Part shown: positions 1,071 to 48,919 of the stretch, one piece after another
Layout: every line of letters begins with the position of its first letter
Numbering within the stretch: position 1 is the first letter of the stretch
From: the human T2T-CHM13v2.0 reference genome, Homo sapiens
DNA: 64,000 nucleotides
NCBI RefSeq assembly: GCF_009914755.1
Contig: NC_060939.1
Strand: one strand, 5' to 3'
Notes under the pieces: generated by a model
Databases searched by the model: none
What the model was told of the DNA's origin: nothing
Seen by the model: only the letters and a program-made list of their open reading frames with translations
Made by a program: the position numbers and the translations under genes

Positions 1071-3150
1071 GTGGTGTGTGTTCAGCTTCTGCTGTTTCGG
1101 AGTTTCAGCCGTACCCTCTTTAGGGTGCAGTGGTAAGGAGAGGAAGCCGGCCAAGGTGGGCGGCTGCCCCCTCCCCAAAGTGCTGCTTGGGAAAGGATGC
1201 AGGTTGCGCAGACGCAGCAGAGGTGACAGTCGCCTCCGCTTGCAGTGGGGCGAGACGTGGGGCAGGGGAGCGAGGGCTTACGCAGCTTTTGCCTGGAAGG
1301 AATGGCAGCCCTCCCCTTCACCTGGCTGATACAGCAGCTGTTCCTTTCCGGTTGTGGCGCAGTAGAGGGGGGAGGAGGGAGATGGGTTGGCGCAGGCTCC
1401 GCCTAGCAAGCTTGGCAGCCACCCCTTACCCACGGTGCAGCAGTAGAGGACTGGAGGGGAATGTGGCTAGAGGCCAGGCATTTGTACCACCTCCGCCTGT
1501 GTGGGATGGCAGCTGCACTGGGCTACTGCTTTTCAGCTCTGCAGTAAACTAGAGTGGTGGGGGCCTGGAGGCCATCAAAGGTGCAGCCACCCCAAGACCT
1601 GCTGTGCTGTTTCAGCAAGCCTCCATTAATGATAGAGATTTTAAATTGGTTTTCTGACTCCCTGGAAAATCGTACCTTTTCATTTTTGTAGTTCCTCTCT
1701 TGGTTGTATTGTGCGCTAATTCTCTATTTTCAAACTGGACTTGTTAACCCCTTTTTTTTAACTCCCTGTAGTCTTTGATTTCCATTCGACACATTTAATA
1801 AATGTCACCATTTAAGATTCAGTTATCCTTCTTAATCTCTGGATAGTCCATTCTGATGCACTGCATACTTTCCTTAAATGGGTTGGGGGAGAGGGCATCG
1901 TGATGGCTCTTCCCGACTAAGGTTGAAAGGTGTTTCAAACACTGGACCTCTTCATCTTCTGGGAGTTGAAAGCTGCAAGTTTTGTGCTCAAAGAGAATAA
2001 AAGAGAAAAGTGGAGACAATCTTATTGGGGTGGGGTTGTGCTTTGGATCAGTTACTGTCTTTTTTTGGATTTTTAAATTAATGATCATTTTTGAAGTTGG
2101 AGCTACTACAAAAATTTGGTGAGAAAGGTTAATGAATAACTGCATTTTTATATTCCAGTACTTTTTTAAAAAATCATTTTATTCTAAGGATTTTGTCTTC
2201 CTTTGCAGGATTTTCAGTGCTTGCCTTTTCTGTATTTACATTTTCCCTCTATCATAACTGGTATGTCTGGTTGCACTGAGTTGTAATTAACAGAAAAGTT
2301 AAATCTACGAAGCCCGAAAAGCCTTGTTCTGGAATAATCTATTTTTGGGTAGTTTTAAAAATAGCAGGAGTCTGGGATTTTATATGATATTTATAATTTA
2401 CCCTTTTTTTTCTGCTTGCATGAAGATAGCAGTTCACATACATATATTTCTTGGTTTAACTTCTGGTCATTTGGCTATTTGCAAGCTGAGTATTTAGTCT
2501 GATCCGCCATTTTGTAGTCTTGCATTCAGGCCCGGGATCCTAATATGGCAGATCCCTTTGGAAAGGCCTCTTGAAGTTTCAAGGTCTGTGTCCTACTCAG
2601 TGAATTGGCTCTGTGCTAGGGCTTTTTGGAGGCAGGGAGTGGCAGCCCTTCCTGTGATGCAGAGGAAGGAAGCTTGGTTGAGAGACCCTTATGTTGTTGT
2701 CTAAGGCAGGGTACTAACTGATTTGGATTTATTCACAGACCTTGCCTTATCTTGATTTCACTATTCTATCTGACCAGTGTGTCATTGCCGAAATGTTTTC
2801 CACATTTATAGTTACTCTGTATCTTTATGTTTCCCTTACCCTGTTCCTTTTCCTAATAAACATCTTTGTTTTACAAAAAATTTTGTTTATAAGGTGTCAA
2901 GGATGCCAAGATAACCTCCTTTGTTTATCAGCGCCCTCTGTTTAGCTATTTTTTAGGAAGAATCATTTAAGCAGGTTGTGAGTACTGCCCTCAATTACTT
3001 GGACAATGAAGTTTTAAAAATCTTATTTAGACCTGTCACTGGTCCTGTCTCCTTTTTTTTTTTTTTTGTGGCCCAGGGCCAGAAAGCTTGAGTGAGAATT
3101 GTTACTACTTAAGGTAGCCTCTCTCCATTTCTGGATGCTAGCTGGCTCAA

Positions 3151-3387: not shown

Positions 3388-3682
3388 TTTTTTTGTTTTT
3401 AGGAGACAGGGTCTGGCTATGTTGCCCAGGTTGGAGTGCAGTGATGCAGTTATAGCTCCCTGTAACCTCAAACTCCTGGATCAATCTAGACTCCTGCCTC
3501 AGCCTCCCAAGTGCCTGTTAGTACAGGCTTGAGGTACTGTGCCCAGCTAACTTTTTATTTTTTTGTAGAGAGGGGTCTCCTTATGTTGCCCAGACTGGTC
3601 TCGAACTCCTGGACTCAAGCAGTGCCCCTGCCTAGGCCTCCCAAAGTGCTGGCATTGCAGCCATGAGCCGCTATACCTGGCC
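3388..3682 (-). mobile_element. AluJ-like
   Basis: Antisense dimeric Alu, gagacagggtct...cctcccaaagtgctgg. Confidence 0.85.
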
Positions 3683-4010
3683 AACTTTGTTTATTTTTAT
3701 TCTTGAGATCTTAGTTAAATTTTATGGAAAATTTAGGCCGTAATAAAATTGGGATTCCATTGCTTTTTGCTTTTCAATATATTTCCGGATTATTACTTTC
3801 AGTGTAAGTGATCTGAGGGCAAACATTTAACACCCTTTCTATATGATGATTTTTTCATGATGTCCTCAGTTTCATAAAATGTTGGTTTCTGTGTTGGGGA
3901 TGCAGTTAGATAAATGCATGTGTGTGTGTATCTAGAACATTCAATAAAGTAGTGTTTTCAAAATCTTATAGATGACATTTTATATGTAGATTAAAAATAA
4001 GTAGATTTAA

Positions 4011-32300: not shown

Positions 32301-35300
32301 TATTATATGTCTTTTAATGTACACTGATATGGAAAAAGCAATGATACATCATGTTATCGCATATTTTAAAATGTGATCATGACCAGGGAATCTTGAAAGT
32401 TGTCTTATGTAATAATGTAAATCAATGTAGAATACCATATATTTTTTTCTTGCAAGGTTATTATTAATAGGAATGACTATTTGTAGCCAATGTGTTCAAA
32501 TGCATGGGAGGACGTAAACACTTCATAATTTCCTGGAAATACAGACATATATCACTTAAAATAATACATTTCTAATATAAATTTAAATTATCTACGTGAT
32601 ATGAGGAAACGAGCTTATTTTTGATAATTTTCCTAGCAGTGAATCAACTATACTCATTTGAATCTAAATTAAATTAAATTTGAGTAAATTCAGCCATTTC
32701 TAAATTCAGTCCATATAAATTCACTTTGGGTAAAAGAAGACAAAATTCCTGAAAACAGTAGATTAAAAAAATAACATTTTAAGAGCAGGTATGATCTCAA
32801 TGAATATAGTGTGGTAATTTCTGCCTAATACCTACCCTTTTGGAGGAAGGAAAGGTAATCCTGTTTGTGTTTAATGTTAATTACTGAACTCTTTATAACT
32901 TGTTTTATTTATTTATTGTTTGATTTTAAGCATCTGCTTCTGGTGGACTTACATATGTTGGGTTTGGGAAATTTCAACATACAGGTTGGCATTCCAGTGG
33001 CTATAGTTGTTTCTTGAAATTTAGTACTGTTTTCCAATGATGATTCTCTTTGGGAATAGGCTGTTCTCTTTTACTTAAAAACTGTAAAATTAGCCACTTC
33101 AGTTGAGACTCCTCCAGGTTTGGAAGTGGTGAAGAATATGGATATATTCAGATCAAATCAGTCATTCTCTGTGATACAGCAACTGAACAAGAAACCCAGA
33201 CTTCAAACAAGCAGACTTCTTTGGGTTGGACTGAATAAAATGAGAAGAAATTACAGAGGATTTGAAAATGTATATGGCCTAGGAATTATTGAAATTATTT
33301 TGGAGGGTGGCAACAAATTTGGGACATTGTACTTTCTGTTTTAATGTCAATTGTATAATGTGTAACTCTAGTGAGCATGGCTGGATACCGTGGCTTCACA
33401 TTTTAGGTAGACTGGGTGTTTTATCTACTGAGTGAATTACAGCCTTCGGCAATGATGTCAAGGTAGCAACAAAACCCAAAAAATCCATCCTTTAGAAATT
33501 GTTTTAAGTCACAATGATGATACCTTCTTTAAAAGCTTTGACTTACTGAAATAATGCTTTTCATTTGTCCAAGATGAGTACATAGCAGAATTTGGAAATA
33601 TGGTTCCAAAAGGCTAAATAGACTGACTTTTTTGATATTTTTCCCTTATAGGGAGAAAGAAACATTAACGGTTTATCAGATGCCTTGACTGTACTTTTTA
33701 CTGCTTTGTCTTCAAGGCCTAGTGTAATAATTAACATCTAGTATGTGTTTGATGGATAGCCAATTTTTGCTTCATTGGTATGTTGTTACCACAGTCATTG
33801 GTAGAGTCAATATATGAATGAAGAAAGTATAACAAATTTGCCCTCTAGTAGAGTACAGGCAAAGTATGGCCGTCAGTTTCACCCTGATTTTTTTTCCTCC
33901 ATTCTTTTTTAGGGTTTAGGTCAAGAACAAGGGCATTTCATTGTACCACATAGCTGAGAGTAGGGAATTGGGACATACTGTCTTGCTTTAAATTAAAGTT
34001 GTCTGTTTCATCAAGTAGAGAGGTTCCTAAGATATTGCCAGATTTCTGACTCGGGGTTTGTTAAAAATAGAAAAGGTAGTTCCTTAAGGTTGTATTTTAT
34101 TGGATGCCTCCACCTGCTTCAGGCTAGCTCACTGGAGAATAAATATTCCAGGTTAAAAAAAAAAAAGCATGTGTTCACGTGAACTTGTCCTTTGAGCAAA
34201 CCTGTTGGAAATCAAGAGGTCATTGCTGTTGGAGAGGATAAGAGGGTGTACTTGTTGGTGTGTTAAGAGTAGTTCACAACATAAAAATAAATGTAAATGC
34301 ATCTATTATATTTGGGTTGGCAAAATATATTGGTTATTTACTCTGTTGATTCCTGTAGTGTACATAAATATGATCTACAACTCTGTGAACAAAAAGGCTT
34401 GAAAAATTGTTCTGAAAATGGACAAATCATGAACAGATAATTGAACAAGAAAATAAGCAGAAAGTAAATTTGTGAAATATTTCAAACTCATTTACATTCA
34501 GAAACATCTTTTTAAGATCACTGTGATACATTCGACTGTCAATTCTGAAGAGACGTATAAAGGAAATGCCAGCTAAGGAGCAAGGAAACAGCTTTCATTC
34601 ATGGGCTAAATTGCAGCTTAAAAAAGATGGACCAGGATTATTTCCTTTAGAAACTTACTGTACAAAAGATACTGTTCACCCCATTAGAGAACTGATTTGA
34701 AGTTACTCTTCCCTGTGAGGGCTCTGTCATCTTAACTGTATTCACATACTTTCAACTGTTCCCCTTGCTGCTAACCTCAGGTTCTTTAGTTCATCTATCT
34801 GGCAGAGCTGATTTGGGGAAAACAAGACAAACCTTCTCAGGTTTTCTTAATAAATAAGCAGTTGTCATGTTTCAAGAGTTTTAGAAATGAGCAATAATCA
34901 AGGAAGAGGACAACGATTGCATACGTTTATAATATTTAGAACATCTTTTGCCACAATAAACACTGGAAACCACCCACTTGTGGACACCAAACATTTGGAT
35001 TTGTATATTTTGTGGCATTCCCTCACTCTAATCCTCTCATCCTTAAAAATTTTCAGAAATTTTTGCAGCAACAAACACTGATTGCAACATATGATTTAGG
35101 GTAGATTTATGAACCATTTTTTCACTGAAATACATCAACAGGAGTGAGTAGTCTGAGTGACCACCCCAGCATGGAGAAAACTGTAGTTTACAGATTCTTC
35201 TGGAGCATTTTTATTTCTAGATTGCGGTGGAAGTCTAACCCCCCTTGGAGATGTCTGCCTTAAAGGGTCTTTGGCCAGGGTCCTCTGTAGAGCCATAGTC

Positions 35301-38300
35301 CAGATCTACTCTATTTGTGTGCTCCTTACAACATCAGAACAGCAACTCTCAATCCGGATTCATCCCCAGAATGCCGTCTGAGTCACAGCGTGGCAGGTGC
35401 ATAAAGAATTATCTACTGAATTGAGAAACATTTCAAATATATAAAACTTGAAATATTTTGGGTAGTCTGTACAAACTCAAGTTGACAAGCCAACCCTGCA
35501 GGAATATATGGATAGAAGGGGAAGGATAACATGTTGAATTCAGCTACATGCCTCATCAGCTAGAAAACCTTGGAAGAAAGAAAGATAGATTGATACTTGC
35601 CTGAACTTCATCAACCAATAATATTTTTTTTCTTGCTATGGAGAGTCCACTCGCCTTTGGAAGATTTACCAGTAAAAGCCCTGCACATGATATACTTGTG
35701 TGCACATGCAATAAGGACATCATTCCCCAACTCCTGCTAGCATTGTGAAAGAGCTCCAAATATTCAAATAATATAAACTTTTTTTCGTGGACATTTAGCT
35801 TACGAGTTTGTTTAAATATGTGGGAAAATTATGTTTAGATAATAGTATTGAAATGAGAATGTAAGATACACATTGAATGATAAATGTGTATGAATTGTTC
35901 ATTGTGCCTTAGGTAAGCCAGACAGTGAAATTAAATGTGTAATAGTTGTATTTTTTTGCATAATCTTGGAATGTAATTAGTTAAAAGCAAACACTTAGAT
36001 TTTGAACATGAATCTGTTAAGCTTGTTAATGTAGTTGCTGTGGCTAAATAACTGGTTTCCTGGGGAAGCTTCTATTTGCTAGAATTTTATTCTGGAACAG
36101 TTGTTAGAAAGGAATTCTCAGGTCACCTTTTAAAGATATACACAATTCTGTATTCACTTTTTGAGTGCATAAGGGTAATAGAAAATGACATGGGAAGCGT
36201 TAATTAGAAAAAAAGGCATTTTGTTTATGTGCATTTGAGGATACAGTGTTTGAAGTTTCTAAATAATTGTTTTATGACATTTTCTTGGTACATAGATATT
36301 GCTAACAATTAGTTTGCTGAAGTATGTAGAAACATTTTAAGAAATGATTTTAGAAATATAATTGTTAAAGTACCTCTGATGTATATTAAAAATCCTTTTA
36401 TTTTGGTTTATATTGCTATGGATGTTTTTCTGGGGGAACTTAATGTATACAACTTCTAACTAAGAAGTTTTATTAATGCTGCTTTATGTATGAAAGTCAT
36501 GGATGTGGATGTTATTTTGTCAGTGGTCTTTCTGTTAAAATTTACGTGGTGTAAGATTTTCTTTTCATGATGGAATTGCCAAAAAGGCCAGCCTCTAGAA
36601 CACTTACATGTTAAGGGTTGGGTGGGATTTGTATTACTTTGTGTATATAACCGACAGGATTGTGTTACTGAATCTTAACCAGCATAGAGATGGCTGACAT
36701 TTTGCATTTTGGGGGACATTAAATTGTTACACAATGATGTCATTGGTTACTGATAGGAGTGTTTAGACTCTTAGATGGCTTTGTTAGTATTAGGCAAATA
36801 TTAGATGTGGATTTAGGAGATAAGAGGGTGGGGTGTTGGAGCCCTGTGTGCACATGAGCATATGTTGCAGGGCCTCCAGACCTAAATCCACGTGAAGATG
36901 GTGGTGGTGGTCTTACCTATATGTTAACATTACATTGTAAACAGGTAGACTACTTTCCTTTTGCTAGTGGGAGTGTTAAATCACCTCTCAGAACATTAAT
37001 TCATTAAATTGCCCCTAAACATTAATTGATTGCTGGTGGATATGCTAAATATTTTTAACATCTATTTTTCTAAATGTATAGATGTCATTTTTAATTCATA
37101 GGGGATAGAACCAGTTTTGCTTGCAAAAAGCAAACTGTTCACTGGATCATTGGGCTTAATTTTTAGGTTGTGGTAGATATAATAGAAATGTTCTTACAAT
37201 TTGTAGTATAATACTGTATATCTCTATAAATATATATGTGACTGTTTTTCTGATAGATGCAACATGGTGGAAATGTCATCATAAATGTCGGTCTGCCTTT
37301 GTTTATAGTTTTCAGATGTGTATATGCAGTTTTTTATACAACAGAAAAATTGCCACATGAGTCAAATAGCATAGGTTAGAAAAGTTCTCATTTGCCAAAA
37401 ATATGTGACTTTCATAATAGTGAGTTGTTTTTGATTTAAAATGTTTCTATCTGTAGAGGCATTTTATAAGTTTTTATGGGGATACTAGCAATGGGATGTG
37501 AAACCTGAGTTCATTAGATCATTGGGTGATAATGGAACCCTTATGTGTATACAATATACATGGTTATATGTTTTTTAAAGCATAGGAGCTATTATGTCTG
37601 CATGGTTCTAAATATATATACACACACGTAAACACATATCTATATATCTATCTATATAGATAGATAGATAAATACATACATATGTAGTGAAAGCTTTTGT
37701 TTCCTCCCTCACATAGGCAGATTATTTGTGTGTGTAAATGAGCAGCTGAAGGGGAATTTTGTTACATGTGTATAAGACAGTCACAATATATAATTGTTTT
37801 GCTTTAATTGTTTAGTCTTTGATTTGTAGGAATTGCCAACACGTATATTTGTGTGTATGCAGGTTTATATATAAATACATATCACTGTATAAACAACATT
37901 TATTGTCATAGGATAGAAATATTCTTAAGTTGCCAGAGATACTGTATGGCTGCTAAATGTATAGTAGAAAAATGTTACCTTTTGCTTTTTAGCATCTGCA
38001 TACAGATTACTAATAGGCGTATATTGTGACCAGTAAACCACTAGACAAGGGCATAAACACTTTAGTTTGATCAGTAGAATTGCTATGCCATGTTTAAATG
38101 GGATTTATTTGGTTGATGCAGAATATATAATTGTATCTAGAAGATAAATATTACAAAAATATTTTAATATACAATTTCTGTCATATTTTTGGAAATATAT
38201 TTTTATTCAAAAGTAGAATCATTGTTGCCAATAGAGTTAGCATCTTTGTGTGCTTGTGAGGTTTGATTTTGAGGGTTTTCTTGGTTTTGTTTTGGGTTCT

Positions 38301-39013
38301 GGAGTTCTAAAAAATGAGATTGTCTTTGTCTAAACAATTTTTATATAAAAATGTACATTTTTGTATTATTTTTTCTTATTCCAACCTAATCGGTGGCTTG
38401 TCCCTTCCTGTGTTTATTGGGCTGTTGGGTGCCTGGATAGAGCTGGAGACCATTTAACTGCTGTATGAATAATAGATAAGCGTCTTGAATAACATCTGAA
38501 TTTCCTAGGTATGTAGAAACACCCACCATGCACATATATGAACATACAGAATATATGAATGTTAAAATATGGTGAAAACAATCTTTTGCTAATAGAAGTG
38601 TTAACCTTTATTTTTAAAAAAAATTTGGTGTGTATGTAGAGGTTTATTTGATTGTTAGTTGTGTCCATGTATAATATGTCATCTACCTTTACAGATGTGC
38701 AGAAATTTGTTGTATTTGGTGGATATATTTTACTTAAAACTATAGGGCAGAAGCTTTTTATGTTTGTTGAAGTGAAATGGCATACCAAACCTGTGTGGTA
38801 GAGTGGGATTTTTAGATTGCTGTGTGTACAGTCAGGTTATATCTTTAAAATACCTATTCGTTATATATTAATATGTAGACATTGCTGATACATATGTATG
38901 TAAAAATCAGAGTATTTTTATTAATATAGGCATTAGCTTCTTGATTCACTTGTTTGTTGGGAAGCACTTGGAGAAGGATGTTGAATACTTTGTCATTTCA
39001 TCTCTGTGACGTA

Positions 39014-39227
39014 CAGTTGTCATGTCAACCCTCCTATCTGCGGGTTTTGCATCTGCAAGCACATGCAGCTGGAAAGTACAGCATTGGCAGAATCTGAAAC
39101 CCGAGTAAAGAGCACCTCATTTTCATAACCATGGGTTCTGAAGAGCTAAGGGAGTTGAGGATGCACCGATTTTGGTATGGGGGTACGGTACAGGTACAAA
39201 TCCCCGATGGATATCACTAGACAACTG
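39014..39227. mobile_element. MER2-like Tigger MITE
   Basis: TA|CAGTTGTC ... GACAACTG|TA terminal inverted repeats with TA target duplication. Confidence 0.75.
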
Positions 39228-39692
39228 TACAATCCTCTTTAGCTTTTTTTTTGTTTTATAGACAGTGTGGACGTGCATATATTGCAAGCATCACTTTGTT
39301 AAACTATGCTTAACCCTGCAAATGATTTTAAGAGCTCTGTGTGGGTGGCTTTCTTGGGTTTACTATTAAATATCTGTGTTTATCATAGTTGTTCTATAAC
39401 ATTTCAACTTTGTAAATATGTAGTTTGTTGATAAAGAGGATAGAGACATTTTTCTTTTGTTGATAGATTGTTCTTTCCCCTTTGCTTAGTCTTCATTGTG
39501 TTGCTGGGATTGTAAAAGACAAATTACTTGCACATATTTAAGCTTATATATTAAATGTATATATGCTGTCATGTTAGAGAGGGAGAGTGGTTCCCTCCCC
39601 CACATTTTGATTTAAAAGTAAAAATTAATTTTTATTAAATTGTTTGGGTCAGTTTCATGTAAGAATAATCTCTACATTGAATGGTATATCTT

Positions 39693-39982
39693 GGCCGGGT
39701 GCGGAGGCTCACGCCTGTAATCCCAGCACTTTGGGAGGCCGAAGGGGCCAGATCACGAGGTCAGGAGTTCGAAACCAGCCTGGCCAATATGGTGAAACCC
39801 CGTCTCTACTAAAAATACAAAAACTAGCCGGCCGTGGTAGTGCACATCTGTAATCCCAGCTACTCGGCAGTCTGAGGCAGAAGAATAGCTTGAACCCAGG
39901 AGGCAGAAGTTGCAGTGAGCCAAGATCGCGCCACTGCACTCCAGCCTGGGCGACAGAGTGAGACTCCCTCTCAAAAAAAAAA
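39693..39982 (+). mobile_element. AluS (Sg-like)
   Basis: Full Alu, TSD AA(T/A)GGTATATCTT. Confidence 0.92.
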
Positions 39983-40009
39983 AGGTATATCTTATTTTCT
40001 TTGATGTAC

Positions 40010-41180
40010 TGAGGTTCATGATGCAATTCATTCTTAAGCATATACTATAGAATCTTTAAATTATATGGTTCTGTGTTCATTTGTGGCATGACAGTAACCA
40101 AGACAATTTAGTAAATAATCAGCAAATGAAATATTTAATTTTGAACATCTAGTATTTCTAGATGTATAGAGAGTCTCACGAAGTAGATTTTTTAAGTATC
40201 TTGTTGTAAATTTGTTAGTACTGTTGTCTTTTGCAATTAATGTGGCAATGAAATTGATTATTGATACACAGGCTCTTGGAGCTAAACAAAATTTATCGTG
40301 TTTTAATTTGGATATTAGAAGGAGGAAATGAAAAGAGACTCTCTACATTTTACCTGTTATTATATAGCTTACCATTATATCAGATATGAATTGCTTTTTT
40401 TAAAAAACTTAGATTAAATGTCATGTAAATGCATTTAGTCTTTCCAGATACACTTCTTGATATCATAATTTTTATTTCCTGTTAATATTCAAGATATAAA
40501 TGACTTCATTAAAGAGATTTTCTACTACCTCTAGGAACTATACAATATTCTGTATGTGTTCCCTTGGTTGCATGACAATATTCAAGACAACTTTGTAAAT
40601 AATAGATAAAAAATTTTAATTTTTAACATCTAGTCTTTCTAGATGTATAGAGTCTCACAAAGTATAATTTTGTAAATAAGTCATTGTAAAATTTCATGGT
40701 TTCATTGTGTTTTGCAAATGTCTTGGCAAAGAACTTGATAAAATTTTGGGCTTCTTGACCTATACATATTTTGGTATCTCTTTATTGGGTTGTTTAGTGT
40801 AAGGAAAAAGTTGAAAGAATGTATTTTCAACTTTGAATTGTAATCAGAAAGAAAATATATTTTAACCATTGTTTAGTGCTTCTGTTATATATTGAAAACT
40901 TCAGTCTTAATTTTTTAGTTACATTGTTGATAGGGCATTATATAAATATACTTCTATAGTCATTGTAGGAAATGTCTTTTATAAGGAAATATTTCTTCTA
41001 CCTCTGAATTACACAGTTTTGTATTTACTTGGACTGCATGGCAACATTCAAAAAACACTTTGAATAACAGATAAAAATGACATTTTCTAAAGCTCTAGGT
41101 TTGCTAGATGCATGAAGTCTCAGCAAAGTATAAATTTGTAAATATTTCATTGTAAAATATCATAAATTGACTCCTTCAAG
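40010..41180 (+). repeat. Degenerate ~470-480-bp tandem repeat (about 2.5-3 units) with conserved hairpin
   Basis: Aligned anchors GCATG at 40086, 40570, 41036; hairpins at 40145-40165, 40626-40646, 41092-41111; shared AGTCTCA..AAGTA..TTGTAAA blocks. Confidence 0.85.
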
Positions 41181-41651
41181 TGTTCAGTAGTACAATAGGT
41201 AATCAATAATTGGCCTCTTGGGACTGACTGTAACGTTTTGGTGTTTGTATGTTTTGAGACAGAGCAATAGATTGCCTCCATATCTTTTAAACATTCAGGT
41301 CTCTTGTATAAGAAAAATAACCATTGTGGGGTTTTTGTGCATCTTATACTAATATGAAACAAACAAAACCCCCTGGATATTTTATCCTTAGAAAGATAGA
41401 GGAAGACAGGAGAAGGGAATGGTCATTGTAAATTAGATAGATATATTGAGTGTTAGAAGATTATTTAAATAATTGTTCTTTTGTTATTTGTACTCTTTGC
41501 AAATTTATTTAAATGCATATTCATGTATATCATAAGTATATATTCACATGCATGTCTAAATTTAGTGGCATAGATCTATCTCAGGGGTATTAATCTTTCA
41601 TTCGTGTACTGATTTGTGTTTTATTTTCATTTAAAAAATTGTGGAACCAGT

Positions 41652-41950
<299 letters not shown>

Positions 41951-43626
41951 AAAAAATTGTGGAACTAGTGTTTTATTTCTAAGCTTGCAGATATTTCTAG
42001 AATTCCACTTACTGTTACATCTAAATGTATGCTGATTTTTCGTTAAATAATAAGCAGGTCTGTAAACATTTTCTTTTCTAACCTCTTTCCATATTTATAT
42101 GAGTATAGAAAAACTGTGGTTATGAATATTTTTTACTTTTTGATAACTTTTAAAAACTATCAGATATGTGATAATCAGATAGATTTCAAGTTTACTTACG
42201 GTGTAAATTAGGAAAATTTTTATAAAGATTCTATCCAGTATTGATCAAAAGTATAAATTGTGTGTCTTTTTAAGCAGCAGTTTGGCAATGACAATCAAAT
42301 TGATACTATGTAAAAGTTTTGAAATGTTATAGCTGGCTACTGGGGTTTTTATCTATTCCAGTTCTCGAAAATTTACCAAATATAGGTTGGCTGTAAAATC
42401 ATAACTATCTGAGGTATCTGTCAATAAATCAAAGATTGCAATGATGATAGCTTCTTTAACATGAATGTAATTCTAACAGTAAAAAATTTCTATATGGAAT
42501 ATGTTTTGTAGTCCTAAATTGATATTTTATATCATTTTTCAGTGAACAAGTAGTTGTTTACAGGTGTCTGTGCATATGTCTCAAGTTTTTCTAACTAAAA
42601 TATTAATAGTTAAGTCTAAAAATATGAATTATACGTGGGGCTTGTCATTCTGACATTTAATACTTCAGCGTGGTGATAATGGTGATATAATATACTGTTT
42701 GAAATTGTAACACATGAGTTAAAATCAAAAGATTGATAAGTACATATTTGTATATTGCTACATGACAAAAATCTAGGAAGAATATGATTCACATGAAAAT
42801 TCTTTGGAAGGACATGACAGACTTTTAACAGTCCTGTATAGTGAAAGGAGAATAGAACGACTACTTCTACTTTCTGTATCTGAAATTTTCAAAAGCTATT
42901 TCAAAATGAACATTTAAACAACAGGAAATTTTAGAGACAACCACTTTGTGCCTGTCTTCATCCTTGACATTCAACATCCTAGGAACAATGGGCTGTTGTA
43001 TTCAACTTCTTATTCCCAACAGCCATTATGAATGGTTTTTGATTGATCTCACAAAGAGCATGTGCTTTAGACATTAATGCAGCGACTACCATGAAACAGA
43101 GTATTGGATTACCTAAGGAAAGAAGCAGAGGATGGAATTTGAGGTAGGTGTCAAACAGTGAAATTTCGTTTGAGAAACAGATGAGTGAAAGAAAATAGTA
43201 ACTGAAACATTCATTCTATAAGGAGAGTACATTTTAATACTGGCGATGCTGTATTTGTGGGTACTGACTAGATCAAGATGTTAGAGGAGGTGTCTCTTGG
43301 GATAAGTTGGAAGTTATCCTTCATTAATTTGGTATAAACTGAAAACAGATTGCTTCTTTCCTTTTAAAGTGGTTGAGTCTCTGATGGGTTTAAAGTAGGC
43401 CTTTGGGGATTTATAGATCATTCAAAATTAGCAGGGGAAATTTTAAATATTCTCTGCATCTTTCTAAAAGGTGTGGTTTAAAGTTGGTGAGAAAGTGAAA
43501 TGGTTGCTGGTTGAACTTGATTTTCTCTATTCACTATGCCTGGCTAGCCTAAAATTATCCTAATGGGTATGTTCAGGTGCCTGATTTGTATCTAAATGTT
43601 TCTGTATTGGATACTGTTTTTCTTAG

Positions 43627-43735
43627 GCAATCAGGATGAGTGAAAAATTGATTTGCAGCTGACCTGCAAATGGAATCATCAGGAACATCCCTTTCTCATG
43701 GAGTCCCTTAATTTACAAGTTAACTGCAAACATAG
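43627..43735 (+). ncRNA. SNHG14: Candidate SNHG14 exon (109 nt)
   Basis: ctgtttttcttAG acceptor and TAG|gtaaga donor. Confidence 0.65.
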
Positions 43736-43884
43736 GTAAGAAGGTTCTGGTGCTATTTGGGGGTGAGGTATTGGTGAGGTTTTGCCTAAGCTCAGGAAAA
43801 TAATACTGGTACAGGTGTATTTCTTGGCCACCTTGGAATTATCAAATGAGTTAGTCTTTAAAATATATTTTATCGAAGTGAAGG

Positions 43885-44483
43885 TATAGTTTGGTTCCCA
43901 GACCAAACTGAGGGTCGGGCTGCTATTTCTCGTGCCCCAATAATGAGATGCAGATGAACAGGGGAGGAAGAGTTAGAGCTAGTTACAGGAAGAAGGCCTG
44001 GAAATTGTCACCACACCAACTCAAAATTACAAAGTTTTTCAGAACTTATATACCTTCTAAGCTATATGTGTACATGTAAGTGTGTATCTAAAGACATAAG
44101 TGATCTATAACTAAGGTCTGAGTCTTCGAGACCTTCCTTTGGAGCCTCAGTAAATTTACATTAATTTAAATGGGTCTGGGTGCTGAGGTGATTACCATTA
44201 TCTTGTTTCCTACTAAATCATGGAGGTTTGGGGAGTTCCTTTAGAACCCCCAATAAACTTGTTTGTGGAGGCCTGGAGAGTTTCTTCAGACCCCTAATAA
44301 AACTTGTTTAATCGTGCTTTAAGGTTCAAGAGAGGCCTAGGTAAAACTTGGTGGGCTTTTGTGACATTCCAACCTTTGTATAACAAAATGGCTCTTTCAG
44401 CTTTTAGTATTTAACTTAACCACTCCGTCAATACTGAAACAGTTGTTATGGAGGCCTCCATTAGAGGGACCTGGCCTGCCACA
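43885..44483 (-). mobile_element. ERV solo LTR (~600 bp, probably ERV1 class; subfamily uncertain)
   Basis: Minus strand begins TGTGGCAGGCCAGGTCCCTCTAATGGAGGCCTCCATAACAACTGTTTCAG, an LTR-type start I recognise; left boundary approximate. Confidence 0.7.
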
Positions 44484-44901
44484 GGTGCGCGCGCACACAC
44501 AGATGAGAGTACCTTTAATTAGTTTACTTATCTATGGTCAAACACGACAATATAACTAATAAAAGAAATGACCAGGCATCTAATTACTAGAAATTATAAA
44601 ATTGACAATATGTGTGTTTTCATAAATGTACAGTTTTCACAAAATGTTTTCACATACAGTTCTTTGATAAAGGGTGAAGTTCATGGAAACCACAGAAAGA
44701 TGCTGATACTGTAAACTATTAAAGTCATTACTGAGGTTGTAAGTTGACTTTGCTATAGGATTGATAATGGGAAGTGTTTCTAAATGTTAACATAACCTGT
44801 AATAAAGTTCAACATGAGCATTCACTTAACCTGCCGCCTTAGCTGTTTCATTAGAGTGGTATATATCTCACCTTACAGTGTTTCTTCTTTTTCCTTGTCA
44901 G

Positions 44902-45031
44902 GAGATGATAGTTCCAAGAAGGAACATTTTATCGTCTTTGTTTTTAATCTCAAGAATGGTACCTACCATCAGTGAATGACCTGTTGCAGTGCTTTCATTG
45001 AAGTGTTCTTCGTTCCCTCAGCAATATGATT
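44902..45031 (+). ncRNA. SNHG14: Candidate SNHG14 exon (130 nt)
   Basis: Long polypyrimidine tract tttcttctttttccttgtcAG; donor ATT|gtaagg. Confidence 0.6.
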
Positions 45032-45149
45032 GTAAGGGCAGTTGAGTGCTAACTTGACTGGGAGAGGGGCGGTTTGGTTAGACAGGACTTGATATATTCT
45101 GTTTTTCATAAGCTTGATGTTTTTTTCTGGCAGCTACTTGACATTCAGA

Positions 45150-45240
45150 TCTGATTGGTTACATATTGCTATGTAATAAATTATCCTGAAACAGGGGCAT
45201 AAACAATATTGTTATGTCCATGGATTCTGTTGGTCTGACC
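45150..45240. mobile_element. MLT1-like MaLR LTR fragment
   Basis: tattgctatgtaataaattatcctgaaac..ggcataaacaa motif. Confidence 0.45.
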
Positions 45241-45370
45241 ATGCCCAGGACAGTTTAGGAATTGTATCCTCTCCAAAGTTTCATTGTAGCTTCTGTGTTT
45301 TTAGTATAGTTACTATTTCTTTCTCATCAAATAGACTGAACTCCTTTTGTTATTATCATTTAAATATTTA

Positions 45371-45854
<484 letters not shown>

Positions 45855-46014
45855 TTATTATTAGAATACTCCAAAAGGAATTTTGATCCACATGCTCTTT
45901 CTTCATAATAGAATGAATGTTGCATGTCATTTTACAGACAAATTTTATTAGTTCTTGCTGATGATATAAACTTTGCTTCTAACCTTTTCCCATTTTCCCA
46001 ACTGTGTCTCTCAG

Positions 46015-46370
46015 GTGATGACTGAAAAAGGGAAACTGTGCCACTATTTGTACCATCATTTTCACCAAAATCTAAAAATGCTTTTTATGACGTATGGAGA
46101 CATTCTTCATGTTTGTTTCAGTGGACACTCCTTGCAGATGTAAAAAACTGAGAAAACTCACTTTTGGAAAGTGACCTAAAGAGTGTCATTGAAGTGAATT
46201 TTAAGTAGGCACGATGATTGTTTTCATGGTTGCTGTTGGATCATATCTCAGGAGCTGGAATGACAGACATTATTGAACAAAGAAATCAGGATAGTGGAAC
46301 TTAAAGGGCTTCATCTCAGTGCTTTCATAAGTATGAAGTGCATATATTTATAATTTTCACTAATCACAGG
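46015..46370 (+). ncRNA. SNHG14: Candidate SNHG14 exon (3' end uncertain)
   Basis: Branch-like ttctaac plus pyrimidine tract ending ctctcAG at 46014; possible donor AGG|gtaaat at 46371, or ATTAAA at 46390-46395. Confidence 0.45.
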
Positions 46371-48919
46371 GTAAATATAAAATTGATTCATTAAAAATGT
46401 TTCATAAGAATTCAAAGGACATAGAATTTTGTGAAATGTAGTATTTTTACTTAAGTGCCTTTTCTCTGCTTCTACCCCACAGCCAATTTTTTATAAACCA
46501 GTTGATAACATAAGTAGTTTTTGGGGGATGATACATTACTTATACATTTTCTATGTAGTAAACATGTATGTGTATGTGTGTGGGTGTGTGTCTAATTACT
46601 TTGTTGGACAGATTCCTGTGGTTTGGAACTGCTGGGGCCAAGTTTATACAAAAATCTACATTTTTGAGTAAACTCCCCATGACTCTAGTAAGTTTCCACA
46701 GTATTTGAGTATTCTTTATTTCCTAAAGCTGTACAAACATCAGATAATCAATATTTGTAAGGATCGATAATATAATTTATAATGAAATTGCTTTATCAGC
46801 TATTAATGTTAACTACATCATCTTCATATAGCCTTATAACTCATTTGTGCTATTCCATTTTCCTCTGTTCCTTTTATTTTCACTTCCCTTGTAATGTTAG
46901 TCTCTTTGTACTGATTTCTGAAGAGTTCATTTATGATTAAACATGTTAACATTTTGTCTAGAATTGCAAATATGTTTTTTCTCATTCATTTTACTATGGT
47001 GTTTTATTTTTTGGTTATACAGAAGTTGTATATTGAAATATAATCTTGTTCTGTTTTATGACTTTGGAGTTTTGTGGTTTTTTAAAACATGTTTACATTG
47101 GTATCATTTATTTGTATTGCCTTCTATTTCAGCAGTTAGTTTGTCATTTCTTTTTCCATTAATCATCATTCTGGTGTTAATGAATGCATTAAATATTTAA
47201 AGTACTCACTTTGACCCGTGTAGTTATCTGTTAAGTTCTACCATAAAGAAAATTTCCAGGTAAAATTGGCTACATTTCTGTTAACTTGCCTTACCATTTT
47301 ATTGACACTTTAATAATTACTAATGATTTATACTGTCTTATCTATTCCATTGAGTTCTATCTCATTTCTCTTCTTTTTCAGAATATTCCCTCTGTATACT
47401 TGCATTTTTTTCTATCAATTGACGCTTACAATTATTTTTGCAAGTTGGAAAAAAATGCAGTATTAATTTCATTTGCAACAAATTTAATAGATTAATTAGG
47501 AGAGAATAGATATCTTTAAAATTGAGTCTTCTGTCCAACTGCAAGGTAGGTCTTTCTATTTTTAATGGAATAATAATTTGGGGATATTGCTAGTGCAGTT
47601 TTTTAAAGTATTTTTTAATACTAGGCATTTTTTAGTTATTTGTTAATTTAGTGATTTGGATTAGTCATTCAACTTGTCTAATTGGTATGTGAAAACTTTT
47701 TGTATGTCTTTTCTAGTAATCTTTACTGAATTTCTAAAATTATGACTTTCTTGAACAATCTGTCATTTTAATTACCTTGATTAAAGTACATTTGTAAGTA
47801 CTTCTAGGATATATGGAAGTAGAAAGTATACTTGGCAATTGGACTGTTAATTGCAATCCCCTTAGGTCATGGTTGTTTTTGTTCTTATTGGTATTTTAGT
47901 AATCTTTTAGAAGAAAGATGTTTTACCAAATTTGGTGACAGGTTTAATAAAATTTCTTTTTGTATAGTTGAAAAACTTGTCCTTATAATTATTAAGGTTA
48001 AAATTAACATATTCCAAAATTGAACATTATTCCATCCCATGAATGAAGTAAATTATATTTTAGTATATACTCCTTAATTATAGTTGTTATAATTTCATTT
48101 GGAATTTCTGAAATGATTCCTAAACAAACAGCTTTATACTTGTTCTGTTATCAGAGGTTTTTAATGTTTTACTGGCTCTTTGAAACCATTTTGAGTATTT
48201 CTGACACAGACTAGAAACAAGTAATATTTTTCTTTAATTATTTTGAAATGTTGGCTTAAAAAGGTGTTGAAATAATAGCGTGTTTTTTTTTTTAAAGTTA
48301 TTTATCTTTTGTCCAAAATCAACTAAGCATTTATGCAAGCATGTGTTTTTTGGAACCCTTTTTTCTGTTTCCTTGTTCTTTGTGTTTTTCTTTATGCCAA
48401 TATCACACTGTTTTGATAATTGTAGCTTTGTAGTTAACATTTTGAAATTGAGAACTGTGACTCTTCCACCTTTGTTCTTTTTCAGGTTTATTTTGCTCAT
48501 TTCAGTCCTTTGAAACTCTGTATGAGTTTTAGGATTTTTTTTTTAATTTTTGCAAAAAATGTCATGGGAAGTTTACTAGGGATTGAGTCTGCACATTGCA
48601 TGAGTATTATTGACATAAACAATACTAACTCTTCCAGTCCATGAACATGGGATGTCTTTTTATTTATGTCATTTATTTCTTTCAGAAATGGTTTGTAAAT
48701 TTCATTGTACAAAAAATTTTCTTTGATCTTACTGGTTAAGTTACTTTCTAAGTATTGTATTTTTAAAATGCTATTGCAAGTGGAATTGTTCTTTGAACTT
48801 CTTTTGTGAATTGTTCATTGCTATTTTTGCATGCTGAATTTGTAGCCTGGTATTTTGTGGAATTTATCAGTTCTGAGATTTTTTTTTATGCTCCCAAGGA
48901 AAATTTTAGCCCGTAATAA

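What the first reader, a model, noticed from the sequence alone, without database searches (positions are those of the whole stretch)
40010..41180. Ancient tandem module: (U)GCAUG followed by a stem-conserved, loop-variable hairpin
Seen: three diverged units spaced 484 and 466 nt apart, with the core GCATG(A/G)CA..CAA..AATAA..[hairpin]..AGTCTCA..AAGTA..TTGTAAA. Hairpins: ACATCTAG-TATTT-CTAGATGT (40145-40165), ACATCTAG-TCTTT-CTAGATGT (40626-40646) and GCTCTAG-GTTTG-CTAGATGC (41092-41111). Units 1 and 2 keep all 16 stem bases while the loop and flanks differ; unit 3 keeps the TCTAG/CTAGA core and 5-nt loop. GCATG lies 55-60 nt upstream in all three (full TGCATG in units 2 and 3), and unit 3 has a second TGCATG on the 3' arm. 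I recognise no transposon here and know of no description. Inference: a repeated RNP-assembly domain of SPA1/SNHG14, or a dimeric DNA site (TCTAG-N5-CTAGA). This is the best candidate for an undescribed element in the window.
Basis: partly seen in the sequence, partly recalled or inferred. Interest (0 to 1): 0.8.

Follow-up and report, generated by a model that had tools for sequence, protein, structure and literature searches.

The report
NORAD-like repeat units inside SNHG14
Three old tandem repeats in an intron of the Prader-Willi host gene SNHG14 are decayed relatives of the repeat unit of the lncRNA NORAD, hairpin included, and are more likely a relic than a new RNA element.

Summary
Three diverged tandem units lie at the stated places, 484 and 466 nt apart. 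Each has GCATG 56-59 nt before a TCTAG-N5-CTAGA hairpin.

The module is not undescribed. It is homologous to the NORAD repeat unit (NRU) of the chr20 lncRNA NORAD. The hairpin is the published 8-9 bp "large stem-loop" of that unit.

- The exact stem pattern occurs at 25 places in the human genome, against 0 for a reversed control. 22 of these lie in NORAD or its retrocopies, 2 are this finding and 1 is unrelated.
- The units align to NORAD units over up to 301 nt (E 7e-13 to 1e-11), in sense orientation to SNHG14.
- They keep Pumilio sites (UGUAAAUA) at 3 of 6 homologous positions.
- They form one clade (100/99 support) and share a ~28-nt deletion. A ~480-nt piece, one full plus one partial NRU, was therefore triplicated on the spot.

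No function is shown. There is no covariation, unit 3's stem is decayed and unit 1 has lost both Pumilio sites.

One puzzle remains. The NRU-like cores are much better kept than the spacers between them.

I found no report in print linking NORAD units to SNHG14. Orthologues could not be examined with the tools available.

The parts
40040..40330 (+). Unit 1 core, homologous to a NORAD repeat unit (NRU)
   Evidence: Aligns to NORAD 1670-1878 (E 3e-8). Covariance model R1 scores it 126.9 bits. Both Pumilio-site positions are mutated (AGTAAATA and TTAAGTAT).
40086..40090 (+). GCATG of unit 1
   Evidence: The aligned NORAD A-type units read ACATG here.
40145..40165 (+). Unit 1 hairpin, 8 bp stem with loop TATTT
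   Evidence: Sequence. RNAfold gives -9.7 kcal/mol with 8 bp. The stem is identical to that of NORAD units N1760 and N3012.
40431..40451 (+). Degenerate fourth NRU hairpin, GCATTTAGTCTTTCCAGATAC, in the spacer of unit 1
   Evidence: Matches the NRU hairpin at 16 of 21 positions. It is one of only 3 sites with 5 or fewer mismatches in the 64-kb window, against a null of 0.35 per 64 kb. It lies 286 nt after the unit 1 hairpin, which is the NORAD-like spacing.
40520..40810 (+). Unit 2 core, the best-kept NRU homologue
   Evidence: Aligns to NORAD 1672-1962 (58% over 301 nt, E 1e-11) and to 2962-3132 (65% over 174 nt, E 7e-13). In the genome search it hits chr12, chr20 and chr7 NORAD copies.
40569..40574 (+). 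TGCATG of unit 2
40594..40601 (+). Pumilio-type site TGTAAATA, upstream of the unit 2 hairpin
   Evidence: It aligns with the NRU Pumilio site TGTATATA.
40626..40646 (+). Unit 2 hairpin, ACATCTAG-TCTTT-CTAGATGT
   Evidence: Identical over 21 nt to the hairpin of NORAD unit N3012. RNAfold gives -9.7 kcal/mol.
40671..40678 (+). Pumilio-type site TGTAAATA, downstream of the unit 2 hairpin
   Evidence: It aligns with the downstream TTTGTAAATA of A-type NRUs.
40985..41275 (+). Unit 3 core, the most decayed
   Evidence: Best match to NORAD is only E 1e-3. It joins the others through unit 2 (75% identity). R1 scores it 138.5 bits.
41035..41040 (+). TGCATG of unit 3
41092..41111 (+). Unit 3 hairpin remnant: 5 bp core plus 2 shifted pairs with a bulge
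   Evidence: -7.6 kcal/mol. 3 of 8 in-register pairs are broken. A second TGCATG lies at 41109-41114.
41137..41144 (+). Pumilio-type site TGTAAATA, downstream of the unit 3 hairpin
39686..39982 (+). Alu bordering the array on its 5' side; not part of the module
   Evidence: Rfam SRP/Alu-type matches. Target-site duplication GGTATATCTT.
41640..41945 (+). Alu bordering the array on its 3' side; not part of the module

Best explanation
The three units are diverged homologues of the NORAD repeat unit (NRU). NORAD is a 5.3-kb unspliced cytoplasmic lncRNA on chr20 that binds Pumilio proteins.

The most likely history (inferred): a short piece of a NORAD-type array, one full unit plus part of the next, came to lie in sense orientation in the SNHG14 transcription unit. 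The simplest route is a fragment of one of the many NORAD retrocopies, early in placental mammals.

A ~480-nt segment was then triplicated in place (shown by the tree and a shared deletion). The copies have been decaying since. Any SNHG14 or SPA1 precursor RNA that contains them would still fold two 8-bp hairpins and carry three UGUAAAUA sites. No function in SNHG14 is shown, and I take the array to be mostly a relic.
For: **The dispersed family is NORAD.**
- The exact stem pattern ACATCTAG-N5-CTAGATGT occurs at 25 genomic places, against 0 for the reversed control. With one mismatch allowed the count is 97 against 16.
- Of the 25 places, 2 are this finding and 2 are the chr20 locus.
- 15 more share NRU flanks when read directly.
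- 5 more lie in or near NORAD-unit matches.
- 1 (chr2:231.15 Mb) is unrelated.

**The chr20 locus fits published NORAD.**
- Its retrocopy-defined length is 5,336 nt. It is contiguous, with no intron against the chr12 and chr5 copies.
- The first 600 nt are 71% G+C with 63 CpG, and AATAAA lies 23 nt from the end.
- It holds 17 UGURUAUA (overlapping count) and 15 UGUANAUA sites, and hairpins every ~310 nt. This matches Tichon 2016.
- The chr12 and chr5 copies carry poly(A) tails and target-site duplications.

**The window units are homologous to NORAD units.**
- There are 21 same-strand BLAST alignments at E<=0.05, the best 7e-13. In 20 shuffles of the array, 5 alignments arose in total.
- A covariance model built only from the three window units matches NORAD units full length, 1-136 of 136 positions, at 46.3 and 44.3 bits (E 9e-5 and 2e-4).
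- The order of motifs matches: Pumilio site, U-rich stretch, hairpin, downstream TTTGTAAATA.

**The triplication was local.**
- The window units form one clade with 100/99 support.
- They share a ~28-nt deletion, and AGTCTCA and GCATG, against all 9 NORAD units in the tree.

**A relic is plausible.**
- 0 of 8 stem pairs covary and unit 3 breaks 3 of them.
- Folding z-scores of the cores are -0.6, -1.4 and -0.1.
- Only 3 of 6 Pumilio-site positions are intact, and no counterpart of the NRU 4-bp small stem-loop is visible.
- Ordinary NORAD retrocopies as diverged as this exist, for example chr2:184.32 Mb at 63% over 901 nt.
Against: **Uneven decay.** Cores keep 65-76% identity (z 10-24), while the ~180-nt spacers of the same duplicated unit are at noise level (z 1.4, -1.1, 0.2). 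Uniform neutral decay does not predict this.

**Clustered conservation.**
- The best 40-column window between units 1 and 2 has 36 of 40 matches and sits on the hairpin (P 0.003).
- The best window between units 2 and 3 also has 36 of 40 and lies just 3' of the hairpin, over a Pumilio site (P 0.0008).

**Hairpin retention.**
- Two of three units keep all 16 stem bases.
- In 11 of the 12 older NORAD copies scanned (one had no such remnant), the 21 hairpin remnants that were not used to find the locus all differ from that stem at 2 or more places.
- This comparison is blurred, because several NORAD units differ natively from that stem.

**No trace of retroposition.** No poly(A), target-site duplication or further NORAD homology flanks the array. 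Regions 35000-39685 and 41960-47000 give nothing but an Alu.

**Tree placement.** The tree does not place the window clade inside NORAD's A-type units with support (63/78).

**Period.** It is 466-484 nt, not ~300 nt.

**Orthologues.** They could not be examined with these tools.
Confidence: 0.6

Rival explanations
1. The NRU-like cores were co-opted as a protein-binding platform in the nuclear SNHG14/SPA1 RNA. The hairpin, the A/U-rich and UGUAAAUA sites and the newly gained (U)GCAUG would recruit the unknown NRU hairpin binder, SAM68- or Pumilio-type proteins, and RBFOX2. Purifying selection on the cores would then explain why they outlast the spacers.
For: - Cores and spacers decay at different rates, and conservation peaks at the hairpin and at the downstream Pumilio site.
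- The units lie in sense orientation to SNHG14.
- All three units have GCATG where the aligned NORAD A-type units read ACATG. That gives 4 GCATG in 1.47 kb, against 1.1 per kb in the window (P 0.006).
- There are 3 UGUANAUA sites in the array, against 14 in the whole window (P 0.01).
- SPA1 is reported to gather RBFOX2, TDP-43 and HNRNPM (PMC12084880, passages).
Against: - The motif counts are not independent, because all copies descend from one ancestor.
- Unit 3 has lost the stem, and unit 1 has lost both Pumilio sites.
- There is no covariation.
- Patchy gene conversion between neighbouring units would give the same local peaks of identity.
- RefSeq places the array in an intron, so it may be absent from the mature RNA.
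- Pumilio proteins act mainly in the cytoplasm (established knowledge).
Confidence: 0.25
2. The array is not a copy of NORAD. It is a sister lineage: both arrays descend from an older repeat-unit ancestor and were amplified separately. The SNHG14 copy would then record the state before NORAD's A- and B-type units diversified.
For: - The window clade attaches at or near the node joining A- and B-type units. Its grouping with A has only 63/78 support.
- Identity to any NORAD unit is 41-59% in the joint alignment.
- The array has its own 466-484-nt period and a 28-nt length difference.
- No retroposition marks are present.
Against: - NORAD retrocopies are abundant and reach similar divergence, 63% over 901 nt. 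An old retrocopy fragment therefore suffices.
- The units share A-type characters: TTTGTAAATA, ATTCAAGAC, and a single T after the stem.
- Long neutral branches are easily misplaced in a tree of about 280 columns.
- NORAD is reported absent from opossum (PMC4947167).
Confidence: 0.15
3. The palindrome TCTAG-N5-CTAGA is a DNA site for a dimeric protein, or the units belong to an unrecognised transposon.
For: The motif is a perfect inverted repeat at the DNA level.
Against: - The only genomic relatives of the whole 1.6-kb array are NORAD-family loci: 3 of 3 non-self matches.
- In NORAD the stem varies by paired changes (ATAT...ATAT in units N2405 and N2686) and by G-U pairs, as expected of RNA.
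- The spread of the motif over the genome is explained by retrocopies with poly(A) tails and target-site duplications.
- Dfam could not be consulted.
Confidence: 0.03

Closest known systems
NORAD repeat units (NRUs) of the lncRNA NORAD/LINC00657 (Tichon 2016, PMC4947167; Chillon 2021, PMC8192489)
   Same: Sequence homology over up to ~300 nt. The order of motifs is the same: Pumilio site, U-rich stretch, then an 8-9 bp stem-loop whose stem is identical in units 1 and 2, then a downstream UGUAAAUA as in A-type units. Both are arranged in tandem and lie in the sense of the host transcript.
   Different: The host is another RNA: SNHG14, nuclear and probably intronic here. The period is 466-484 nt instead of ~300. 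There are three units instead of 12-14. The 4-bp small stem-loop has no visible counterpart and the ninth stem pair is lost. About 28 nt are missing 3' of the hairpin. GCATG stands where the aligned NORAD A-type units read ACATG. Only 3 of 6 Pumilio-site positions are intact.
NORAD processed pseudogenes (HCG11 and others; the paper names four with >90% identity over >4 kb)
   Same: Most simply the same source and mechanism of spread. The genome holds such copies from 99% down to ~63% identity.
   Different: Those copies are collinear with several successive NORAD units, keep the ~310-nt spacing, and the young ones keep poly(A) and target-site duplications. The SNHG14 units are each other's closest relatives, so they were amplified locally, and they have no flanking NORAD sequence.
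Protein-sequestering repeats of the PWS-region lncRNAs (SPA1, SPA2 and sno-lncRNAs, reported to gather RBFOX2, TDP-43 and HNRNPM; PMC12084880, passages)
   Same: The location inside the SPA1 genomic span, and the presence of (U)GCAUG motifs.
   Different: No binding data were seen for this stretch. Motif density is explained by common descent of the units. Whether the stretch is in mature SPA1 is unknown.

Membership tests
NORAD repeat unit (NRU) | Significant sequence similarity to NRUs over the unit core | tested here: met
   BLAST E 7e-13, 1e-11 and 3e-8 for units 2 and 1. Unit 3 reaches only E 1e-3 but joins through unit 2. Shuffles gave 5 alignments in 20 runs against 21 observed. The model built from window units hits NORAD units full length.
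NORAD repeat unit (NRU) | One or two Pumilio response elements (UGURUAUA or UGUANAUA) | tested here: inconclusive
   UGUAAAUA is present at 3 of 6 homologous positions: unit 2 has two, unit 3 has one, unit 1 has none. It fits UGUANAUA but not the stricter UGURUAUA.
NORAD repeat unit (NRU) | Short stem-loop of four paired bases between the Pumilio site and the U-rich stretch | tested here: not met
   The columns aligned to GGAC...GTCC read AGATAAA...ATTTTA or similar, with no conserved 4-bp stem. RNAalifold predicts none.
NORAD repeat unit (NRU) | U-rich stretch of 2-5 bases before the large stem-loop | tested here: met
   TTTT(G), TTTTT and TTTTC stand directly 5' of the hairpin in units 1, 2 and 3.
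NORAD repeat unit (NRU) | Stem-loop of eight or nine base pairs | tested here: met
   Units 1 and 2 have 8 bp at -9.7 kcal/mol. Unit 3 has 7 bp with a bulge at -7.6 kcal/mol. 7 of the 11 NORAD units examined have 9 bp.
NORAD repeat unit (NRU) | Units about 300 nt apart (270-340 nt) | tested here: not met
   The spacing is 481-484 and 465-466 nt. A degenerate hairpin 286 nt after unit 1's suggests a decayed intervening unit.
NORAD repeat unit (NRU) | Binding of PUM1/2 (and SAM68) to the unit | not testable with these tools
   No CLIP data are on hand.
NORAD processed pseudogene | Collinearity with successive NORAD units, 3' poly(A), and target-site duplication | tested here: not met
   Units 1 and 2 both match the same NORAD units best. 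There is no NORAD homology or poly(A) in the flanks. The window units form one clade. Great age could have erased these marks.
Rfam families | Match to any curated RNA family | tested here: not met
   None of the 18 matches at E<=10 in 38000-43000 lies in 40010-41480. Rfam 15 also has no family that hits NORAD itself at gathering score, so this says little.

The most novel reading that the evidence does not exclude
SNHG14/SPA1 carries its own separately amplified array of NORAD-type units, and their cores are under selection. On this reading, two lncRNAs that act by soaking up RNA-binding proteins, one cytoplasmic (NORAD) and one nuclear (SPA1), share a structured module. The SNHG14 version has swapped part of its Pumilio sites for RBFOX-type GCAUG. 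It would also give a second, independent lineage with which to find what binds the NRU hairpins, whose partners have "remained elusive" (PMC7617650, passage).
Probability: 0.18. Interest if true: 0.75.

Novelty: new member of a known kind. Interest (0 to 1): 0.45.

Why it matters
**If it is only a relic.** It removes a false "undescribed element". The hairpin module is the NORAD repeat unit.

**What remains open.**
- The better survival of the cores than of the spacers needs explaining.
- The array sits in the Prader-Willi critical transcript that builds protein-sequestering nuclear bodies.
- Selection on it would link NORAD biology to the PWS locus. It would also offer a natural variant of the unit for finding the hairpin's binding partner.

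**Evolution.** The array is also a useful old outgroup for working out how NORAD's repeats arose.

**Status in print.** No link between NORAD units and SNHG14 or Prader-Willi turned up. The searches each found one paper, PMC13504291, which treats the two RNAs separately. The search found nothing relevant. The published Infernal NRU model was run on NORAD only (PMC8192489, passage).

Tried and rejected
- **Tandem Repeats Finder:** the array is too diverged and was not reported.
- **Rfam:** nothing in the units, and nothing for NORAD either.
- **More units in the window or its flanks:** none by nhmmer, by BLAST against NORAD or by the covariance model. A possible collapsed fourth unit at about 41545-41590 stays unproven.
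- **Interspersed repeat or transposon:** the whole array has no genomic relatives except NORAD-family loci.
- **Multi-unit NORAD retrocopy as direct origin:** rejected in its simple form by the monophyly of the units and their shared deletion.
- **"Older than any NORAD retrocopy":** I considered this, then dropped it. One search showed a retrocopy at 63% identity.
- **Profile or covariance-model search of the whole human genome:** not accepted by the tool, so other very old NRU-like fragments may exist unseen.
- **The SPA paper by Wu et al. 2016:** not held. What I say about SPA1 comes from passages of later papers.
- **Other mammalian genomes:** none is reachable with these tools, so age, constraint and covariation across species remain untested.

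Full report
**1. The observation**

- Direct repeats of 26-50 nt at 83-90% identity are spaced 465-484 nt apart.
- Tandem Repeats Finder misses the array.
- Recognisable homology covers about 280 nt of each ~480-nt unit. Pairwise identity is 69, 65 and 56% by MAFFT and 76, 75 and 65% by gapped global alignment. No shuffle out of 200 reached the observed score for any pair.
- A profile of the cores finds only these three copies in the 64-kb window.
- Rfam has nothing here: none of 18 weak matches in 38000-43000 falls in the array.

**2. What the module is**

*The genome search.* A search of the window's own genome with the unit 2 core returned, besides units 2 and 1, three loci on chr12, chr20 and chr7. 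Identity was 74-82% over 65-90 nt, and each holds the very same hairpin.

*The stem pattern.* ACATCTAG-N5-CTAGATGT occurs at 25 places in the genome, against 0 for the reversed control. With one mismatch allowed the counts are 97 and 16. The 25 places break down as follows:
- 2 are the finding itself.
- 2 lie in the chr20 locus.
- 15 share long flanks with it when read directly.
- 5 lie in or beside matches to a chr20 unit.
- 1 is unrelated (chr2:231.15 Mb).

*The retrocopies.* The chr12 copy matches chr20 at 94-96% over 5.4 kb. It is bounded by a poly(A) tail and the duplication AAAAATCTAACTTCAGT. A 2.6-kb chr5 copy ends at an earlier poly(A) site and has its own duplication. The chr20 locus has a G+C-rich upstream region and no poly(A), so it is the parent of these retrocopies.

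*The parent is NORAD.* I recognised the parent as NORAD from memory, then checked it. The retrocopies define a transcript with these features:
- 5,336 nt long and unspliced.
- A CpG-rich start and a single AATAAA near the end.
- 17 UGURUAUA sites (overlapping count) and 15 UGUANAUA sites.
- Hairpins every ~310 nt.

The published description is a 5.3-kb unspliced RNA from a CpG-island promoter. It has 12 units of ~300 nt and 17 such motifs, and each unit holds:
- one or two Pumilio sites,
- a 4-bp stem-loop,
- a U-rich stretch,
- a stem-loop of eight or nine pairs.

It also notes many pseudogenes (PMC4947167, passages; PMC8192489, passages).

**3. Homology of the window units to NORAD units**

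- The array gives 21 same-strand alignments to NORAD at E<=0.05:
  - 40579-40746 to NORAD 2962-3132: 65% over 174 nt, E 7e-13.
  - 40537-40830 to NORAD 1672-1962: 58% over 301 nt, E 1e-11.
  - 40049-40264 to NORAD 1670-1878: E 3e-8.
- Twenty shuffles of the array gave 5 alignments in all.
- A covariance model built from the three window units alone matches NORAD units over all 136 positions (46.3 and 44.3 bits). It also matches units of old retrocopies, and nothing else in the window.
- In the joint alignment the motifs line up. ATTCAAGAC comes first, then a Pumilio site (TGTAAATA in unit 2 against TGTATATA in NORAD), a U-rich run and the hairpin. A downstream TTTGTAAATA follows, as in NORAD's A-type units.
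- The units lie in the sense of SNHG14.
- Regions upstream (35000-39685) and downstream (41960-47000) have no NORAD similarity other than an Alu.
- The whole 1.6-kb array has no other relatives in the genome at this tool's sensitivity.

**4. How the array arose**

- The three units are closer to each other (61-72%) than to any NORAD unit (41-59%).
- They share a ~28-nt deletion 3' of the hairpin, and the changes AGTCTCA and GCATG.
- They form one clade with 100/99 support, while NORAD's A-type units form another (98/98). The position of the window clade relative to the A and B types is unresolved (63/78). I left units N3631 (Alu-disrupted) and N4634 (gappy) out of the tree.
- A fourth, degenerate hairpin at 40431 matches 16 of 21 positions. 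Only 3 sites in the window come this close, against a null of 0.35 per 64 kb. It lies 286 nt after unit 1's hairpin, the NORAD spacing.
- So the duplicated ~480-nt piece held one full and one partial unit, and it was triplicated on the spot.
- Whether that piece came from a NORAD retrocopy or from an older common ancestor cannot be settled here. Retrocopies as diverged as 63% over 901 nt exist (chr2:184.32 Mb), so a very old retrocopy fragment is sufficient.

**5. Does it do anything?**

Against a function:
- Among the three units, 0 of 8 stem pairs show a compensating change, and unit 3 breaks 3 of them.
- Folding energies of the 136-nt cores are unremarkable, with z of -0.6, -1.4 and -0.1.
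- Unit 1 has lost both Pumilio sites and unit 3 has lost one.
- No counterpart of the small stem-loop is visible.
- RefSeq places the stretch in an intron. SPA1 spans it genomically (PMC9896466) but is spliced (PMC12084880, section 9).

For some constraint:
- The spacers of the same duplicated units are at noise level (z 1.4, -1.1 and 0.2) while the cores are not.
- Matches per 100 alignment columns fall from 76-77 around the hairpin to 44-57 in the spacers.
- Identity peaks are sharper than column shuffles allow. Units 1 and 2 have 36 of 40 matches on the hairpin (P 0.003). Units 2 and 3 have 36 of 40 just 3' of it (P 0.0008).
- Two units keep all 16 stem bases.

Other explanations:
- Patchy gene conversion between neighbouring units would give similar identity peaks.
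- Indel-rich A/T spacers could lose alignable similarity faster than the cores.
- Native differences among NORAD units blur the comparison with the retrocopy remnants.

I therefore rate a relic as more likely than a working module, but not by a wide margin.

**6.

- GCATG is present in all three units where the aligned NORAD A-type units (N1760, N3012) read ACATG. NORAD has a single GCATG, elsewhere in the transcript.
- It is one gain in the common ancestor, kept three times.
- The array holds 4 GCATG and 3 UGUANAUA in 1.47 kb, against 1.1 and 0.22 per kb in the window. P is 0.006 and 0.01 against a Markov null, but the copies are not independent.

**7. Novelty**

- The hairpin module itself is known.
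- Its presence as a separately amplified array in SNHG14 appears not to be in print. Two full-text searches returned only PMC13504291, which analyses NORAD and SNHG14 separately and deals with G+C-rich exon repeats in SNHG14. A third search found nothing on the origin of the units.
- The published covariance model of the units was applied to NORAD alone.
- The proteins that bind the NRU hairpins are said to remain elusive (PMC7617650, passage).
- Supplements of these papers were not opened.

**8. Verdict**

It is wrong on novelty of kind.
- It is a new, very diverged member of the NORAD repeat-unit family in an unexpected host.
- A function is unproven. The uneven decay of cores and spacers is worth checking in other mammals.

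Noticed in passing
window 40431-40451: A degenerate NRU-type hairpin, GCATTTAGTCTTTCCAGATAC, lies in the spacer 286 nt after unit 1's hairpin. The matching places in the other spacers (about 40900-40924 and about 41377) are decayed further.
   Followed up: partly
window 41545-41590: CACATGCATGTCTAAATTTAGTGGCATAGATCTATCTCAGG holds a TGCATG 513 nt after unit 3's, and a short palindrome. It may be a collapsed fourth unit. The covariance model does not detect it at E<=1.
   Followed up: partly
window 39686-39982 and 41640-41945: Two Alus bracket the array. The 5' one has the target-site duplication GGTATATCTT. The 3' one is flanked by a 24-nt direct repeat (D14).
   Followed up: no
window 44221-44309: A tandem repeat of 45 nt in 2 copies at 82% identity, near SNHG14 exons.
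   Followed up: no
L022/L025 (G000:C20:37766604-37771942, minus strand): In the NORAD parent locus, the hairpins of units N2405 and N2686 read ATATCTAG...CTAGATAT, a paired C-G to U-A change. N1489 and N3631 have G-U pairs. The transcript carries an Alu at about 3667-3963.
   Followed up: partly
L021/L024 (chr12) and L023/L026 (chr5): The chr12 locus is a full-length NORAD retrocopy with target-site duplication AAAAATCTAACTTCAGT. The chr5 locus is a 2.6-kb retrocopy that ends at an internal poly(A) site, with duplication ATGGTCTGGTCT.
   Followed up: yes
L031 (G000:C2:184321377-184323397): A very old NORAD retrocopy, 59-65% identical over several collinear units and shortened by deletions. It could serve as a neutral yardstick for the SNHG14 units.
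   Followed up: partly
L027 (G000:C2:177321152-177323172) and L007 (G000:C2:231151123-231154143): These are hairpin look-alikes (ACATGTAG-TCTTT-CTAGATGT and ACATCTAG-GAGTT-CTAGATGT) with no NORAD similarity in their flanks. They are chance matches or belong to another family.
   Followed up: partly
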